Assembly (NCBI RefSeq): GCF_003018235.1 | Contig: NZ_CP027437.1 | Source of the DNA: Escherichia coli | GTDB taxonomy: Bacteria > Pseudomonadota > Gammaproteobacteria > Enterobacterales > Enterobacteriaceae | DNA length: 64,000 nt | Direction: 5' to 3' (one strand) | Shown: positions 9,001-15,000 of the stretch, piece after piece | How the letters are laid out: each line of letters starts with the position of its first letter | How positions within the stretch are numbered: position 1 is the first letter of the stretch | Made by a program: the position numbers

Positions 9001-12000
9001 GTTTTTCCCTGGTGTTTTAACACCTCCACCAGCCCGGTCAGGCTGGCGGTTTGATGCAATACATCTTTACGCACCAGGTAAGTACCGCTGCCGTGGCGGC
9101 GGACCACCAGCCCCCACGCTACCAGCAGATCAATGGCTTTACGGATGGTCATCCGCGATACCGCAAACTCTTCCGCCAGCTTTTTTTCACCGGGAAGAAG
9201 GCTGTTTAGCGTGAAATCCGCGGAGTTAAGTCGAATTCTTAACCGCTCCGCAATGCTTTTGTAGATCATCTCTAGATCTCTTTTTTGCCTGCAAGCCCGG
9301 GTAACGCGCCCACAAGTTCTGCTTAATCGATTGAAAAAACATCTTTTTTTTAAAGATGTGTTCGATGCTGTGTACCAGTGCTCACAGATGTCTACTTTTT
9401 TGCGAAAACGTAGATCTCTACCGCCCAACGAAAAGCATGAAAGCGATCACGAATCCCACTGGGTCGTCATGTTCTGCCGATCGCATCTTCCTATCCTCGC
9501 TCCAGGCCTGCCGCATAACCAATCAGGCTTCCTACTTACAGAATTGAGAAAAGAGGATGTGGAAATGCTCAGTCAAATTCAACGCTTTGGCGGCGCGATG
9601 TTCACGCCAGTGCTGCTGTTTCCCTTCGCCGGGATTGTGGTGGGTCTTGCCATCTTGCTGCAAAACCCGATGTTTGTCGGGGAATCACTGACCGATCCGA
9701 ACAGTTTATTCGCGCAAATCGTACACATTATTGAAGAGGGCGGTTGGACGGTATTCCGTAATATGCCGCTGATTTTTGCTGTCGGTTTACCCATTGGCCT
9801 TGCTAAGCAAGCGCAGGGGCGTGCTTGTCTGGCGGTGATGGTGAGTTTCCTGACCTGGAACTATTTCATCAACGCGATGGGAATGACCTGGGGAAGCTAC
9901 TTCGGCGTCGATTTCACTCAGGACGCGGTGGCAGGTAGCGGGCTGACAATGATGGCGGGGATTAAAACCCTCGATACCAGCATTATCGGCGCAATTATCA
10001 TTTCCGGCATTGTGACGGCGCTGCATAACCGTCTGTTCGATAAAAAACTGCCGGTTTTTCTCGGCATTTTCCAGGGGACGTCTTATGTGGTGATTATCGC
10101 CTTCCTGGTGATGATCCCCTGCGCCTGGCTGACATTGCTCGGCTGGCCAAAAGTACAAATGGGGATTGAATCTCTGCAAGCGTTCCTGCGTTCGGCGGGT
10201 GCGCTTGGGGTGTGGGTTTACACCTTCCTCGAACGTATTCTGATCCCAACCGGTTTACACCACTTCATCTACGGACCGTTTATCTTTGGTCCGGCAGCTG
10301 TTGAAGGCGGCATTCAGATGTACTGGGCGCAGCATCTGCAAGAGTTCAGTTTGAGCGCCGAGCCGCTGAAATCGTTGTTCCCGGAAGGCGGTTTTGCCCT
10401 GCACGGTAACTCAAAAATCTTTGGTGCCGTGGGCATTTCTTTAGCGATGTACTTCACTGCCGCACCGGAAAATCGGGTAAAAGTGGCGGGCTTGCTGATC
10501 CCCGCAACCTTAACCGCCATGCTGGTGGGAATTACCGAACCGCTGGAATTTACCTTCCTGTTCATTTCACCGTTGCTGTTTGCGGTACACGCCGTGCTGG
10601 CGGCCTCAATGTCGACCGTGATGTACCTCTTTGGTGTGGTGGGCAACATGGGCGGTGGTTTGATTGACCAGGTTTTACCGCAAAACTGGATCCCGATGTT
10701 CAGCAACCACGCGGATATGATGCTGACCCAAATCGCCATTGGGTTGTGCTTTACCCTGCTGTACTTCGTGGTTTTCCGCACCCTGATTCTGCAATTCAAC
10801 ATGTGCACGCCGGGACGTGAAGATGCGGAAGTGAAACTCTACTCAAAAGCCGAATACAAAGCCTCGCGAGGCCAAACCACCGCTACAGAGCCAAAAAAAG
10901 AGCTGGATCAGGCTGCCGGTATCCTGCAAGCCCTGGGCGGGGTCGGCAATATCTCCAGCATCAACAATTGCGCGACGCGTCTACGGATTGCACTGCATGA
11001 CATGTCACAAACGCTGGATGACGAAGTCTTTAAAAAGCTGGGAGCGCACGGCGTCTTCCGTAGTGGCGATGCCATTCAGGTGATCATTGGTCTGCATGTA
11101 TCCCAGCTGCGTGAACAGCTCGATAGCTTAATTAATTCTCATCAATCAGCAGAAAATGTTGCCATTACGGAGGCAGTATAATGACCAAATTCTCAGTGGT
11201 TGTCGCAGGCGGTGGAAGCACCTTTACGCCAGGCATTGTGTTGATGCTCCTGGCGAATCAGGACCGTTTCCCGCTTCGTGCACTGAAATTTTATGATAAC
11301 GATGGCGCGCGGCAGGAAGTGATTGCCGAAGCCTGTAAAGTCATCCTAAAAGAAAAAGCGCCGGACATTGCGTTTAGTTACACCACCGATCCTGAAGTGG
11401 CATTCAGCGACGTTGATTTTGTCATGGCGCACATCCGCGTCGGCAAATACCCGATGCGCGAACTGGATGAAAAAATCCCGCTGCGCCACGGCGTTGTTGG
11501 TCAGGAAACTTGCGGACCCGGCGGAATAGCGTACGGCATGCGTTCCATTGGCGGCGTCCTGGAACTGGTGGATTATATGGAAAAATATTCACCAAATGCC
11601 TGGATGCTCAACTACTCCAACCCGGCAGCTATTGTCGCAGAAGCCACGCGTCGTCTGCGCCCGAATGCGAAAATCCTCAACATCTGTGACATGCCAATCG
11701 GTATTGAAAGCCGGATGGCGCAAATTGTTGGGCTGCAAGATCGCAAACAGATGCGCGTGCGCTACTACGGCCTGAACCACTTTGGCTGGTGGACATCAAT
11801 TGAAGATTTGCAGGGCAACGACCTGATGCCCCAGCTGCGGCAATATGTCTCTAAGCACGGTTATGTTCCACCGCAGCAAGATACACATACCGAAGCGAGC
11901 TGGAACGACACCTATGCAAAAGCGCGGGATGTCCAGGCACTGGACCCGGATACATTGCCGAACACCTATCTGAAATATTATCTCTTCCCGGATTATGTCG

Positions 12001-15000
12001 TTCAGCATTCCAACCCTGAACATACCCGCGCGAATGAGGTGATGGAGCATCGCGAGAAACAGGTTTTCGATGCTTGCCGCGCCATTACGGCGGCAGGAAA
12101 TTCAGCGGCGGGCAAGCTGGAAATTGACGAACATGCGTCATACATCGTCGATCTGGCGGCGGCAATTGCCTTCAACACTCAGGAGCGGATGTTGCTGATT
12201 GTGCCTAACAACGGGGCAATCCATAACTTTGATGATGAAGCGATGGTCGAGATCCCGTGTCTGGTCGGGCACAACGGACCAGAACCACTGGTGGTCGGCG
12301 ATATCCCGCAGTTTCAGAAAGGGTTAATGAGTCAGCAAGTGGCGGTGGAAAAACTGGTCGTGGACGCCTGGGAACAGCGTTCATATCAGCACCTGTGGCA
12401 GGCGATTACGTTGTCGAAAACGGTACCGAGCGCCGCGGTCGCCAAAGCTATTCTGGATGAGTTGCTGGAGGCCAACAAAGCGTACTGGCCAGAGTTACGT
12501 TAATTGTGTGGACTGGCATCCGTTGGGTGCTGGTCCGTATTCTTCAGCACAGCTGACGGCGCATAACCAAATTTATGTTTAAAGGATTTGCTGAAATGAA
12601 AGGAGTCGAAGAAGTTGAGCGTATCAGCGACTTCGCCAACCGAGTTCCCTTGTTGCTTTAATAGCGATAGCGCCAGATCCAGACGTGCATTGAGGTAATA
12701 TTCTTTCGGCGTCTTGCCGGTATAGCGTAAAAATAGACGACGCAACCAGGCTTCGCTACAGGGGATCGTGGCAGCCATATCAGCTACGCTCCAGCGTTGT
12801 TGCAGACTGGCATGTAAAGTGGCAATTAGTTTTTCAATTTGCCGCCGTTGTGGATCTTTTTTACCGTCTGCGTACATAAGACAAATCCACTGATAAATAA
12901 TTTTCGTCAGAAAAGCGACTGCCAGATTATTTTTTATTGCTTCTGGTGAAGTAATTAATTCAGCAACTTCGGTGAGTTCCTGATTATAAATTTCGCCATT
13001 ATAAATAACGCTTTGCTGACCAACGGGAATATCCATCATACTGGTGGGGGTAAATTCCATCCAGTACTGTTCCCAGACTAAACCTTCACAGTGATAAGAG
13101 TGAATATCCATTGGCTTTAAAAATATAATACAGTTGCCATGCAGAGTTATTTGTTCACCATTCTTTAAAAGAATTTTCCCACATCCTTGTACGGTATACA
13201 CCGCAACCCATGAGTTGGCGATAAGCGGTTTCTTCTTGTCCCGCGGCCAGATCACCCGATAATGCTCGTCGGCGTAGGTATGCCAGAGCGAGATCAGAGA
13301 AATTCCGCTGGAGATCACATTTTCGTTAATCAATAAGGGAATATTGTACGGAGTTTCGTTTTTTACATCCGAACTTTGCAAGTTTCCATTCATTTTAATA
13401 TCCCTCCGGCGAATTATGCTCACAACCTGAACTTAACAGAAAACAATCCGTTCAGGGATACGATGTTTGTATTTTAAGAATCTGACTGCCTGACCCGACG
13501 CATTTTACCTCTCCCTATATTCATGCGTCCGGGACATAAACATAAATAAGGGCTATGAGATGAATTCGTTACAAATCTTGAGTTTTGTCGGTTTTACGCT
13601 GCTGGTGGCGGTGATCACCTGGTGGAAGGTCCGCAAAACAGATACCGGATCGCAACAAGGCTATTTTCTTGCCGGACGTTCACTAAAAGCGCCGGTTATT
13701 GCCGCTTCGTTAATGCTAACCAACCTTTCCACGGAACAACTGGTTGGTCTTTCCGGGCAGGCCTACAAAAGCGGCATGTCGGTGATGGGCTGGGAAGTGA
13801 CTTCAGCGGTGACGCTGATCTTCCTCGCGCTAATCTTTTTACCGCGCTATCTGAAGCGCGGCATTGCCACCATCCCCGATTTTCTGGAGGAACGTTATGA
13901 TAAAACGACGCGTATTATCATCGACTTCTGCTTCCTCATTGCCACCGGCGTCTGCTTTCTGCCGATTGTTCTCTACTCCGGCGCGTTGGCGCTCAACAGC
14001 CTGTTTCACGTCGGGGAATCGCTACAGATTTCTCACGGTGCGGCTATCTGGCTATTGGTAATTTTGCTTGGTCTGGCGGGAATTTTGTATGCGGTAATCG
14101 GCGGACTGCGCGCAATGGCAGTGGCGGACTCCATCAACGGTATTGGGCTGGTTATTGGCGGGTTGATGGTGCCGATATTTGGCCTGATCGCGATGGGCAA
14201 GGGCAGCTTTATGCAGGGCATTGAGCAACTCACCACCGTTCACGCCGAGAAATTAAACTCAGTCGGTGGCCCGACCGATCCCTTGCCGATTGGCGCGGCA
14301 TTTACCGGTTTGATTCTGGTGAACACCTTTTACTGGTGTACAAATCAGGGCATCGTGCAACGCACGCTGGCGTCAAAAAGCCTGGCGGAAGGGCAAAAGG
14401 GGGCGCTGTTAACGGCGGTGCTGAAAATGCTCGACCCGATGGTACTGGTGCTGCCAGGGTTGATTGCGTTTCATCTGTATCAGGATCTACCGAAAGCCGA
14501 CATGGCCTACCCGACGCTGGTCAATAACGTTCTGCCAGTGCCACTGGTGGGTTTCTTCGGCGCGGTGTTATTTGGTGCGGTGATCAGTACCTTCAACGGC
14601 TTTCTGAATAGCGCCAGTACGTTATTCAGTATGGGTATTTACCGGCGCATCATTAACCAGAATGCCGAGCCGCAACAGCTGGTCACCGTTGGGCGCAAAT
14701 TTGGTTTCTTTATCGCCATCGTTTCGGTGATGGTCGCGCCGTGGATCGCCAACGCGCCGCAGGGGCTGTATAGCTGGATGAAACAGCTCAACGGTATTTA
14801 CAACGTGCCGCTGGTTACCATCATCATTATGGGCTTTTTCTTCCCGCGCATTCCGGCGCTGGCGGCAAAAGTGGCGATGGGGATTGGCATAATCAGCTAC
14901 ATCACCATCAACTATCTGGTGAAGTTCGACTTCCATTTCCTCTATGTGCTGGCCTGTACGTTCTGTATCAACGTGGTCGTGATGCTGGTGATCGGTTTTA

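What the first reader, a model, noticed from the sequence alone, without database searches (positions are those of the whole stretch)
9565..12503. Intact glv PTS EIICB and 6-phospho-alpha-glucosidase genes (pseudogenes in K-12)
The PTS permease reads as one continuous EIIC-EIIB protein (~538 aa from ATG 9565) and the GH4 6-phospho-alpha-glucosidase as a full 440-aa protein. My recollection is that in K-12 MG1655 glvC/glvB are split and glvG is truncated. This strain may therefore retain a functional alpha-glucoside (maltose/trehalulose/palatinose-type) phospho-sugar pathway, possibly under the adjacent GntR-type YidP.
Basis: partly seen in the sequence, partly recalled or inferred. Interest (0 to 1): 0.4.

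Follow-up and report, generated by a model that had tools for sequence, protein, structure and literature searches.

The report
Intact E. coli alpha-glucoside PTS operon
This E. coli strain carries unbroken copies of a sugar transporter gene and a phospho-sugar-splitting enzyme gene that are both broken in the laboratory strain K-12, but about a third of sequenced E. coli have the same unbroken genes and databases already annotate them, so the finding is correct but ordinary.

Summary
Window 9565-11181 (+) is an uninterrupted 538-aa PTS EIIC-EIIB permease. Window 11181-12503 (+) is an uninterrupted 440-aa GH4 6-phospho-alpha-glucosidase. The two genes overlap by one base (TAATG). K-12 has an amber codon (CAG>TAG) at permease codon 369. 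It also has a 508-bp out-of-frame deletion in the glucosidase gene, between two GAACCACT repeats.

Among 5,426 complete E. coli genomes:
- about 30% keep the undeleted glucosidase gene;
- about 49% carry the same deletion as K-12;
- about 21% lack the whole cassette;
- the amber codon is found only in 348 genomes, and the ten listed are K-12-type or laboratory strains.

The window's two proteins are identical in amino-acid sequence to RefSeq proteins that are already named. The glucosidase is 89% identical to solved structure 6DUX and keeps the NAD and metal/catalytic motifs. Intact alleles show dN/dS of 0.02-0.05.

The divergent regulator-permease-glucosidase cassette recurs in eight genera in several different chromosomal contexts, which supports YidP as its regulator. 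The cassette has a conserved candidate operator and a CRP-like site. Function and regulation are inferred, not tested.

Verdict: real, already known, low interest.

Side note: genomes with the glucosidase deletion usually also carry a substitution in an invariant permease motif.

The parts
8553..9269 (-). yidP: GntR/HutC-type regulator (238 aa), divergent from the operon; candidate regulator of the cassette
   Evidence: Pfam GntR + UTRA domains. Annotated yidP in collinear genomes. A 53-77% identical regulator sits in the same divergent position next to the permease and glucosidase genes in 7 other genera.
9387..9418 (.). Candidate operator: inverted repeat GATGTCTAC-N14-GTAGATCTC in the yidP/permease intergenic region
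   Evidence: Alignment of 8 genera. The symmetry is kept while the arms change together, for example C. rodentium CTGTATA..TATACAG and Proteus GTGATCT..AGATCAC. Binding by YidP is inferred, not tested.
9436..9451 (+). Candidate CRP site caTGA-N6-TCACg
   Evidence: TGA and TCAC are invariant in all 8 genera. The centre lies about 60 nt upstream of the start site predicted from the -10 element. Inferred only.
9492..9497 (+). Candidate -10 hexamer TATCCT of the operon promoter
   Evidence: TAnnnT is conserved in the 8-genus alignment. The strict consensus scan did not call it; the -35 is weak, as expected for an activator-dependent promoter. Inferred.
9565..11181 (+). PTS alpha-glucoside-type EIIC-EIIB permease, 538 aa, intact (equivalent to glvC+glvB of K-12 read as one gene)
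   Evidence: TIGR02005 scores 958.9 bits against a cutoff of 607.3. Pfam finds EIIC at residues 10-346 and EIIB at 453-482. Cys469 lies in NNCATRLR and aligns with the phosphorylation-site motif of PtsG structures. No EIIA domain.
10669..10671 (+). Codon 369 (CAG, Gln): the site of the K-12 amber mutation (TAG)
   Evidence: The TAG allele is in 348 genomes (the ten listed are K-12-type or laboratory strains) and the CAG allele is in 3,921.
10252..10308 (+). Invariant EIIC motif GLHHFIYGPFIFGPAAVEG (residues 230-248), wild type in the window
   Evidence: P238, G242 and P243 are invariant in 8 genera. They are substituted (P238Q, G242C, P243L) in all 5 sampled genomes that carry the glucosidase deletion.
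11181..12503 (+). GH4 NAD/Mn-dependent 6-phospho-alpha-glucosidase, 440 aa, intact (equivalent to glvG of K-12; orthologue of AglB/GlvA)
   Evidence: Phmmer E = 3e-275 to PDB 6DUX with 392/439 identical residues, and E = 6e-225 to B. subtilis GlvA structure 1U8X. The motifs AGGGSTF, NICDMP, LNHFGW and YLKYY are identical in 8 genera.
11782..12289 (+). The 508 bp that are deleted in K-12 and about half of E. coli; flanked by GAACCACT repeats at 11774-11781 and 12282-12289
   Evidence: The segment is present in 1,652 of 5,426 genomes. The deletion junction is present in 2,612-2,643 genomes.
12500..13393 (-). yidL (AraC-type regulator), convergent and overlapping the glucosidase stop codon; a neighbour, probably not part of the cassette
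   Evidence: It is absent next to the cassette in Enterobacter, Pantoea, Erwinia, Serratia, Proteus and Pectobacterium.

Best explanation
This is the ancestral, undamaged form of the E. coli glv (agl-type) cassette. It is a two-gene operon for uptake and cleavage of alpha-glucosides, with a divergently transcribed GntR/HutC regulator, YidP. Shown: both reading frames are intact and conserved. Inferred from the families: the EIIC-EIIB permease takes up an alpha-linked glucoside and phosphorylates it at O-6 of the glucosyl unit. The likely substrates are methyl-alpha-glucoside, isomaltose, maltitol and the sucrose isomers, as reported for Klebsiella AglA/AglB. The phosphate comes from PEP via EI, HPr and a IIA domain supplied in trans (probably Crr), passing through Cys469 of the EIIB domain. 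The GH4 enzyme then cleaves the 6-phospho-alpha-glucoside by the NAD+/Mn2+ redox-elimination mechanism, giving glucose-6-phosphate plus the aglycone. Inferred from the footprint: transcription probably starts about 60 nt upstream of the ATG, from a weak promoter helped by CRP-cAMP, and is controlled by YidP through the conserved inverted repeat. K-12 lost the pathway in two steps: an old, widely shared 508-bp deletion in the glucosidase gene, and a later amber codon in the permease gene.
For: Intact frames at the stated coordinates, matching RefSeq gene models. Permease: TIGR02005 (alpha-glucoside-specific IIBC) scores 958.9 bits against a cutoff of 607.3; EIIC and EIIB domains are present; the CATRLR cysteine is present. 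Glucosidase: 89% identity to solved 6-phospho-alpha-glucosidase 6DUX and a strong match to GlvA 1U8X; the nucleotide-binding and Cys-Asp/His/Tyr motifs are unchanged. Purifying selection among intact E. coli alleles: 25 synonymous against 3 non-synonymous differences in the permease gene and 19 against 2 in the glucosidase gene (window versus BL21), with dN/dS 0.02-0.05; against Enterobacter, dN/dS is 0.04-0.07. The cassette (regulator, permease, glucosidase) is conserved in Enterobacter, Citrobacter, Pantoea, Erwinia, Serratia, Proteus and Pectobacterium, with different flanking genes. The intergenic footprint shows an invariant TGA-N6-TCAC, a -10-like element and a symmetric repeat whose arms change together. 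The stop and start codons overlap (TAATG) with a GGAGG upstream, which fits translational coupling. Literature: Klebsiella aglA/aglB let E. coli K-12 use methyl-alpha-glucoside, isomaltose and sucrose isomers, and the K-12 homologues are described as cryptic or truncated (PMC5309279, citing Pikis 2006, Thompson 2001, Reizer 1994). GH4 enzymes GlvA and BglT need NAD+ and Mn2+ (PMC10628242).
Against: There are no expression, transport or growth data for this or any E. coli strain with the intact locus in the literature I could search. NCBIfam has no model that the glucosidase passes at its curated cutoff; the best is 179 bits against 486 for an alpha-galactosidase model, so the name rests on similarity to solved and characterised relatives. 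The cassette is dispensable in the species: about 49% of genomes have the glucosidase deletion and about 21% lack the cassette. Selection on it is therefore weak or niche-specific. Other E. coli glucoside operons (bgl, asc, chb) are known, from general knowledge, to be silent in the wild type. The candidate operator lies about 100 nt upstream of the predicted start site, which is not a typical position for a simple repressor of the permease promoter; it could instead serve yidP autoregulation. The strict promoter scan found nothing in the intergenic region.
Confidence: 0.8

Rival explanations
1. The genes are intact but the operon is cryptic (transcriptionally silent) in this strain, like the bgl, asc and chb glucoside operons of E. 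coli. It would then contribute nothing to the phenotype unless activated by mutation.
For: No sigma-70 consensus promoter was found in the intergenic region by the strict scan. The intergenic region is more AT-rich (46% GC) than the genes (52-53%). The cassette has been lost or damaged in about 70% of genomes. No report of alpha-glucoside PTS phenotypes in natural E. coli was found.
Against: dN/dS of 0.02-0.05 among intact alleles at synonymous divergence up to 0.08 means the proteins have been used. A never-expressed gene would drift. The promoter-region elements (TGA-N6-TCAC, -10, Shine-Dalgarno) are conserved across genera and unchanged in E. coli.
Confidence: 0.15
2. The permease has a role independent of the glucosidase, for example uptake of glucose or another sugar, or a regulatory role. 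That would explain why it stays open in most genomes that lost the glucosidase. The operon would then not be a dedicated alpha-glucoside pathway.
For: In 4 of 4 sampled non-K-12 genomes with the glucosidase deletion, the permease and yidP are annotated as intact. 3,921 genomes keep CAG at codon 369 while only 1,652 keep the undeleted glucosidase gene.
Against: About 78% of deletion genomes carry a non-wild-type sequence in an EIIC motif that is invariant across 8 genera. The variants seen are P238Q, G242C and P243L. At most 4% of undeleted genomes do. This points to decay or deliberate crippling of the orphan permease rather than retention of a second function. The permease and glucosidase genes are always adjacent and overlapping in other genera.
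Confidence: 0.05

Closest known systems
Klebsiella pneumoniae AglA (EIICB) / AglB (6-phospho-alpha-glucosidase) system
   Same: Same gene order (permease then GH4 enzyme) and the same domain make-up, with no EIIA domain. The glucosidase is 89% identical over 439 residues to PDB 6DUX, a solved 6-phospho-alpha-glucosidase. That 6DUX is the Klebsiella AglB enzyme is my recollection; the tool output does not name the organism. The literature reports that aglA/aglB confer growth on methyl-alpha-glucoside, isomaltose and sucrose isomers on E. coli K-12 (PMC5309279).
   Different: The substrate range of the E. coli proteins has not been measured. I did not compare the window permease directly with Klebsiella AglA; the closest orthologue compared, from Enterobacter, is 80% identical.
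E. coli K-12 glvC / glvB / glvG (cryptic glv locus)
   Same: Same chromosomal locus between yidP and yidL, with 98.2-98.5% nucleotide identity.
   Different: K-12 has Q369amber, plus P238Q and T441A, in the permease, and a 508-bp frameshifting deletion in the glucosidase gene. The window has none of these.
Bacillus subtilis GlvA (MalA) / GlvC (MalP) / GlvR maltose PTS operon
   Same: GH4 NAD+/Mn2+ 6-phospho-alpha-glucosidase with a very strong sequence match (1U8X, E = 6e-225), paired with a Glc-family PTS permease. When expressed in E. coli K-12 it confers use of isomaltose, panose and other alpha-glucosides (PMC5309279).
   Different: From general knowledge and the references cited in PMC5309279, the gene order in B. 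subtilis is glvA-glvR-glvC and the regulator is the activator GlvR (YfiA) (its RpiR-family membership is my recollection), controlled by CcpA. Here the regulator is a divergent GntR/HutC protein and the footprint suggests CRP.

Membership tests
GH4 6-phospho-alpha-glucosidase (GlvA/AglB/MalH type) | Two-domain GH4 architecture (Glyco_hydro_4 N-terminal Rossmann domain plus Glyco_hydro_4C) | tested here: met
   PF02056 scores 223.6 bits (residues 6-184) and PF11975 scores 190.1 bits (residues 195-415).
GH4 6-phospho-alpha-glucosidase (GlvA/AglB/MalH type) | N-terminal dinucleotide-binding glycine motif, and the Cys-Asp, His and Tyr residues that hold Mn2+ and carry out catalysis (Cys171/Asp172/His202/Tyr265 in GlvA numbering, recalled from Rajan 2004 and Yip 2007) | tested here: met
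   AGGGSTF (8-14), C169-D170 in NICDMP, H200 in LNHFGW and Y263 in YLKYY are present. The numbering offset of 2 relative to GlvA follows from the ungapped 1U8X match. The motifs are identical in 7 other genera. The residue roles come from memory of the literature.
GH4 6-phospho-alpha-glucosidase (GlvA/AglB/MalH type) | Closer to characterised phospho-alpha-glucosidases than to phospho-beta-glucosidases or alpha-galactosidases of GH4 | tested here: met
   916 and 750 bits to 6DUX and 1U8X (alpha), against 212 bits or less to 6-phospho-beta-glucosidases such as 1S6Y and 1UP7.
GH4 6-phospho-alpha-glucosidase (GlvA/AglB/MalH type) | A curated family model passed at its trusted cutoff | tested here: inconclusive
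   NCBIfam gives only sub-cutoff hits (alpha-galactosidase NF011657, 179 against 486; AglA NF041089, 69 against 650). No dedicated model appeared in the results. RefSeq nevertheless names the identical protein 6-phospho-alpha-glucosidase.
GH4 6-phospho-alpha-glucosidase (GlvA/AglB/MalH type) | NAD+- and Mn2+-dependent hydrolysis of 6-phospho-alpha-glucosides | not testable with these tools
   Requires an enzyme assay.
PTS Glc-family alpha-glucoside-specific EIICB (TIGR02005) | Full-length match above the curated cutoff | tested here: met
   958.9 bits against a cutoff of 607.3, covering residues 2-523 of the protein and 1-524 of 524 model positions.
PTS Glc-family alpha-glucoside-specific EIICB (TIGR02005) | EIIC membrane domain followed by an EIIB domain with the phosphorylatable cysteine (C-[AI]-T-R-L-R) | tested here: met
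   PF02378 at 10-346 and PF00367 at 453-482. Cys469 in NNCATRLR aligns with DACITRLR of E. coli PtsG structures.
PTS Glc-family alpha-glucoside-specific EIICB (TIGR02005) | PEP-dependent uptake and phosphorylation of alpha-glucosides, using a IIA domain supplied in trans | not testable with these tools
   No EIIA domain is present in the protein. Dependence on Crr is inferred from the family. The window was not screened for a IIA-Glc gene such as crr.
GntR family, HutC subfamily regulator controlling the adjacent operon (YidP) | N-terminal GntR winged helix plus C-terminal UTRA effector domain | tested here: met
   PF00392 at 3-64 and PF07702 at 86-224.
GntR family, HutC subfamily regulator controlling the adjacent operon (YidP) | Conserved genomic association with the target operon, and a symmetric operator in the shared intergenic region | tested here: met
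   The divergent regulator is present in 8 of 8 genera, 53-77% identical, in differing flanks. The inverted repeat keeps its symmetry through paired changes.
GntR family, HutC subfamily regulator controlling the adjacent operon (YidP) | Demonstrated DNA binding and effector response | not testable with these tools
   YidP is listed among uncharacterised E. coli transcription factors (PMC4797297, PMC9308461).

The most novel reading that the evidence does not exclude
The most novel reading left open concerns the damaged alleles elsewhere in the species, not the intact locus. After the 508-bp deletion removed the phospho-alpha-glucosidase, the now dead-end permease would load the cell with non-metabolisable sugar phosphates. 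It would then have been repeatedly crippled by selection. The events seen are P238Q, G242C and P243L, all within six residues of an EIIC motif invariant across eight genera, plus the K-12 amber codon. That is at least four separate hits. The window's allele would be the unhit ancestral reference. If true, the residue 238-243 loop is a functionally critical and mutationally favoured off-switch of Glc-family EIIC permeases, and the locus is a natural example of compensatory gene inactivation.
Probability: 0.3. Interest if true: 0.4.

Novelty: already known. Interest (0 to 1): 0.12.

Why it matters
The finding matters little beyond correct annotation. The strain probably has one more sugar pathway than K-12: alpha-glucosides such as isomaltose, palatinose or methyl-alpha-glucoside. 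That can be relevant for metabolic models, for biotyping, and for engineering E. coli to use starch-hydrolysate by-products. For the last purpose, foreign glvAC or aglAB genes have been introduced into K-12 (PMC5309279), although natural E. coli alleles exist. The species-wide picture shows stepwise decay of a dispensable catabolic cassette: about 30% undeleted, about 49% with a shared deletion, about 21% with the cassette absent, and a laboratory-lineage amber codon.

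Tried and rejected
- I looked for a LexA box because glvB appears in lists of 'potential SOS box' genes (PMC6590174). A CTG-N10-CAG scan found no site near the start of the glv genes. The only match inside them, at 11392-11407 in the glucosidase gene, lacks the AT-rich centre of the consensus. The only consensus-like site I recognised is the known tisB/istR site at 20500.
- The strict sigma-70 and terminator scan gave nothing useful in the intergenic region. The promoter proposal rests on the cross-genus footprint instead.
- Literature searches for phenotypes of E. 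coli with an intact locus (palatinose, maltitol, turanose, phenotype microarrays; glvA; yidP) found no functional study. One paper lists 6-phospho-alpha-glucosidase among accessory genes enriched in Bangladeshi soil isolates (PMC6968650). Pikis 2006 is not held in the library.
- I tried to identify the source strain. The best match over 24 kb is only 98.6%. The glv region is 99.4% identical to strain Ecol_316, and one 481-bp piece is 100% identical to strain ST2747. No identical genome is in the collection.
- I did not run structure prediction or fold search, because solved structures at 89% identity make them redundant.
- I considered that the cassette might be a horizontally acquired island in this strain. 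I rejected this because Enterobacter and Citrobacter have it at the same ibpB-yidE site and its GC content (52-53%) is like that of the window (49.5%). Loss in B2-type genomes (clean removal of window 8603-12532) is the simpler reading.

Full report
**1. The observation**

The window is an E. coli chromosomal segment running from dgoA to selC.
- An uninterrupted frame from the ATG at 9565 to 11181 (+) gives 538 aa. A second frame at 11181-12503 (+) gives 440 aa.
- RefSeq gene models in a collinear genome have the same coordinates.
- The two proteins are identical in amino-acid sequence to WP_000952130.1 ('PTS sugar transporter subunit IIB') and WP_000160110.1 ('6-phospho-alpha-glucosidase') of strain Ecol_316.
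- A GAGGA lies 7 nt before the first ATG.
- The first gene's TAA overlaps the second gene's ATG (TAATG), with a GGAGG upstream.
- The second gene's stop overlaps the stop of the convergent yidL.

**2. The K-12 comparison**

The K-12 locus (NZ_CP011343, L001) has two lesions.
- **Permease gene.** It has the same length as in the window but carries TAG for CAG at codon 369 (window 10669-10671). It also has P238Q and T441A.
- **Glucosidase gene.** It lacks 508 bp (window 11782-12289). The deletion lies between two GAACCACT octamers embedded in a longer imperfect repeat. The frame shifts right after His200, leaving about 200 native residues.

So K-12 is 'split' by a nonsense codon, not by a frameshift, and 'truncated' by a deletion.

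**3. How common each state is**

Counts are from 5,426 complete E. coli genomes.

| State | Genomes |
|---|---|
| Segment deleted in K-12 is present | 1,652 (30%) |
| Exact deletion junction present | 2,643 (55-mer) or 2,612 (junction-specific 30-mer) |
| No match to the glucosidase gene | about 1,150 |
| Amber allele (TAG) at codon 369 | 348 (the ten listed are K-12-type or laboratory strains) |
| CAG allele at codon 369 | 3,921 |

- In one genome without the cassette (L011), yidE is joined almost directly to yidL, with window 8603-12532 missing. Touchon et al. list glvC among genes that differ between phylogroups (PMC2617782).
- For the codon-369 counts I used 55-mers centred on the SNP, so that a mismatch removes every 28-nt megablast word.
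- Strains with the undeleted form include BL21, O157:H7 and O145:H28.

The intact state is therefore a common, already annotated polymorphism. The K-12 state is a species-wide deletion plus a later amber codon seen in 348 genomes.

**4. What the genes are**

*Permease*
- It matches TIGR02005 (alpha-glucoside-specific IIBC) at 958.9 bits against a cutoff of 607.3.
- It has an EIIC domain (residues 10-346) and an EIIB domain (453-482), and no EIIA domain.
- Cys469 in NNCATRLR aligns with the active-site motif of PtsG.

*Glucosidase*
- It has both GH4 domains.
- It is 392/439 (89%) identical to solved structure 6DUX and matches B. subtilis GlvA (1U8X) at E = 6e-225 without gaps.
- It is much further from GH4 phospho-beta-glucosidases.
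- The glycine-rich nucleotide motif, the Cys-Asp pair (C169, D170), His200 and Tyr263 are present and identical in seven other genera. These correspond to GlvA C171, D172, H202 and Y265. The residue roles are from my memory of Rajan 2004 and Yip 2007.
- NCBIfam offered no model passed at its cutoff, so the name rests on these close characterised relatives.
- GH4 enzymes of this kind need NAD+ and Mn2+ and act on 6-phospho-glycosides (PMC10628242).

**5. Evidence that the intact alleles are maintained**
- Window versus BL21: 25 synonymous and 3 non-synonymous differences in the permease gene, and 19 and 2 in the glucosidase gene.
- dN/dS is 0.02-0.05 among intact E. coli alleles and 0.04-0.07 against Enterobacter.

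This argues against a long-silent gene pair.

**6. Regulation (inferred)**

A GntR/UTRA regulator sits divergently upstream of the permease-glucosidase pair in E. coli, Enterobacter, C. rodentium, Pantoea, Erwinia, Serratia, Proteus and Pectobacterium.
- The regulators are 53-77% identical to YidP.
- The outer flanks differ in most genera.
- yidL, yidK and yidJ are not part of the conserved unit.

Aligning the eight intergenic regions shows four conserved elements.
- An inverted repeat (window 9387-9418, GATGTCTAC-N14-GTAGATCTC). Its arms change together in C. rodentium and Proteus, as expected for an operator that co-evolves with its regulator.
- An invariant TGA-N6-TCAC (9438-9450), which fits the core of a CRP site.
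- A TAnnnT element (TATCCT, 9492-9497), placed so that the CRP-like site is centred about 60 nt upstream of the predicted start site.
- The Shine-Dalgarno sequence.

None of this has been tested. YidP is still listed as uncharacterised (PMC4797297, PMC9308461). The repeat lies about 100 nt upstream of the predicted start, which is unusual for a simple repressor; it may serve yidP autoregulation or a more complex arrangement.

**7. Most likely mechanism**
- PEP-dependent uptake and 6-phosphorylation of an alpha-glucoside by the EIICB. The phosphate arrives through a trans-acting IIA domain, probably Crr.
- Cleavage by the GH4 enzyme to glucose-6-phosphate plus aglycone.
- The substrate range is probably like that reported for Klebsiella AglA/AglB expressed in K-12: methyl-alpha-glucoside, isomaltose, maltitol and sucrose isomers (PMC5309279, citing Pikis 2006).

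Intact frames, family membership, motif conservation, purifying selection and cassette conservation are shown. Substrates, the IIA partner, the promoter, and the CRP and YidP roles are inferred.

The main rival is that the operon is cryptic in the wild type, as other E. coli glucoside operons are. The low dN/dS counts against that, but only experiments can settle it.

**8. Comparison with what is known**
- The K-12 glv genes have been described as cryptic or truncated since the 1990s (Reizer 1994, Thompson 1995 and 2001, cited in PMC5309279).
- The intact E. coli proteins are in RefSeq under informative names.

The finding is correct but already known.

**9. Side observation**

The EIIC stretch GLHHF(I/V)YGPF(I/M)(F/Y)GP is invariant across the eight genera.

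*Sampled alleles.* All five sampled alleles from genomes with the glucosidase deletion carry a substitution in it. None of five alleles from genomes without the 508-bp deletion do. One of those five, strain 1332KP, carries a different glucosidase lesion.
- P238Q: K-12, PT109, FREC5.
- G242C: KS-NP019.
- P243L: O39:NM.

*Genome counts with allele-specific 30-mers*:

| Allele | Genomes |
|---|---|
| Wild type | 2,167 |
| Q238 | 1,788 |
| C242 or L243 | 271 |

*Overlap with the deletion.* Chimeric queries that add a junction-specific 30-mer give Q238-and-deletion = 1,718 and wild-type-and-deletion = 585, out of 2,612 deletion genomes.
- About 78% of deletion genomes are non-wild-type in this motif.
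- At most about 4% of undeleted genomes are.

Clonal structure means these are few independent events: at least three, plus the K-12 amber codon. The pattern fits either relaxed selection or selection to disable a permease that would otherwise accumulate dead-end sugar phosphates. This is the only part with some novelty, and it needs a phylogeny-aware test.

**10. Verdict**

The locus is ordinary and already known. Interest is low.

Noticed in passing
window 10252-10308 (EIICB residues 230-248); compared in L001, L013-L016: Genomes with the 508-bp glucosidase deletion usually also carry a substitution (P238Q, G242C or P243L) in an EIIC motif that is invariant across 8 genera. About 78% of 2,612 deletion genomes are non-wild-type there, against at most about 4% of undeleted genomes. 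This may reflect secondary inactivation of the orphan permease.
   Followed up: partly
L012 3392-4711 (E. coli 1332KP, NZ_CM173849): A fourth allele of the locus. The first 283 residues of the glucosidase are fused to an unrelated C-terminus, and the product is annotated 'RNA-guided endonuclease TnpB family protein'. yidL, yidK, yidJ and yidI are missing, so the gene is followed directly by yidH.
   Followed up: partly
L003 2045-2682 (BL21 derivative): In BL21 the permease and glucosidase genes are intact, but the regulator yidP is annotated as frameshifted, and the match to the window starts 88 bases into the query (at window position 9088), inside yidP. If YidP is a repressor, BL21 might express the operon constitutively.
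   Followed up: no
L011 4905-5000 (FDAARGOS_1287); window 8603-12532: About 21% of complete E. coli genomes lack yidP, the permease and the glucosidase genes altogether. In the one such genome examined, yidE and yidL are separated by fewer than 100 bp, and its yidE is only 95.8% identical to the window.
   Followed up: partly
L006 1641-3123 (Citrobacter rodentium): C. rodentium has two GntR/UTRA regulators in tandem between yidE and the permease. The distal one is 76% identical to YidP and the one adjacent to the permease only 57%. This suggests that the cassette was replaced there together with its own regulator.
   Followed up: no
window 37730-48280 (+): A giant inverse-autotransporter (invasin/intimin-like) adhesin gene with 17 tandem 291-bp Big_1 repeats (41183-46123). 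It is split into two ORFs, of 2,428 and 1,074 aa (37730-45016 and 45056-48280), so it may be a pseudogene or an assembly error within the repeats.
   Followed up: partly
window 1-24000: No complete E. coli genome in the collection matches the first 24 kb better than 98.6%, although short stretches reach 99.4-100% in strains Ecol_316 and ST2747. The source appears to be a lineage that is poorly represented or mosaic in this region.
   Followed up: partly
window 5680-5752, 20569-20698, 59777-59867: Expected RNA elements of this chromosomal region are present: the ROSE-like thermometer before ibpA, the istR antitoxin RNA next to tisB (with a LexA box at 20500-20515), and the tRNA-Sec gene selC.
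   Followed up: no
L010 12500-13392 (strain W13-16): In the closest 24-kb match, yidL (the AraC-type neighbour) is annotated as frameshifted, while it is intact in the window.
   Followed up: no
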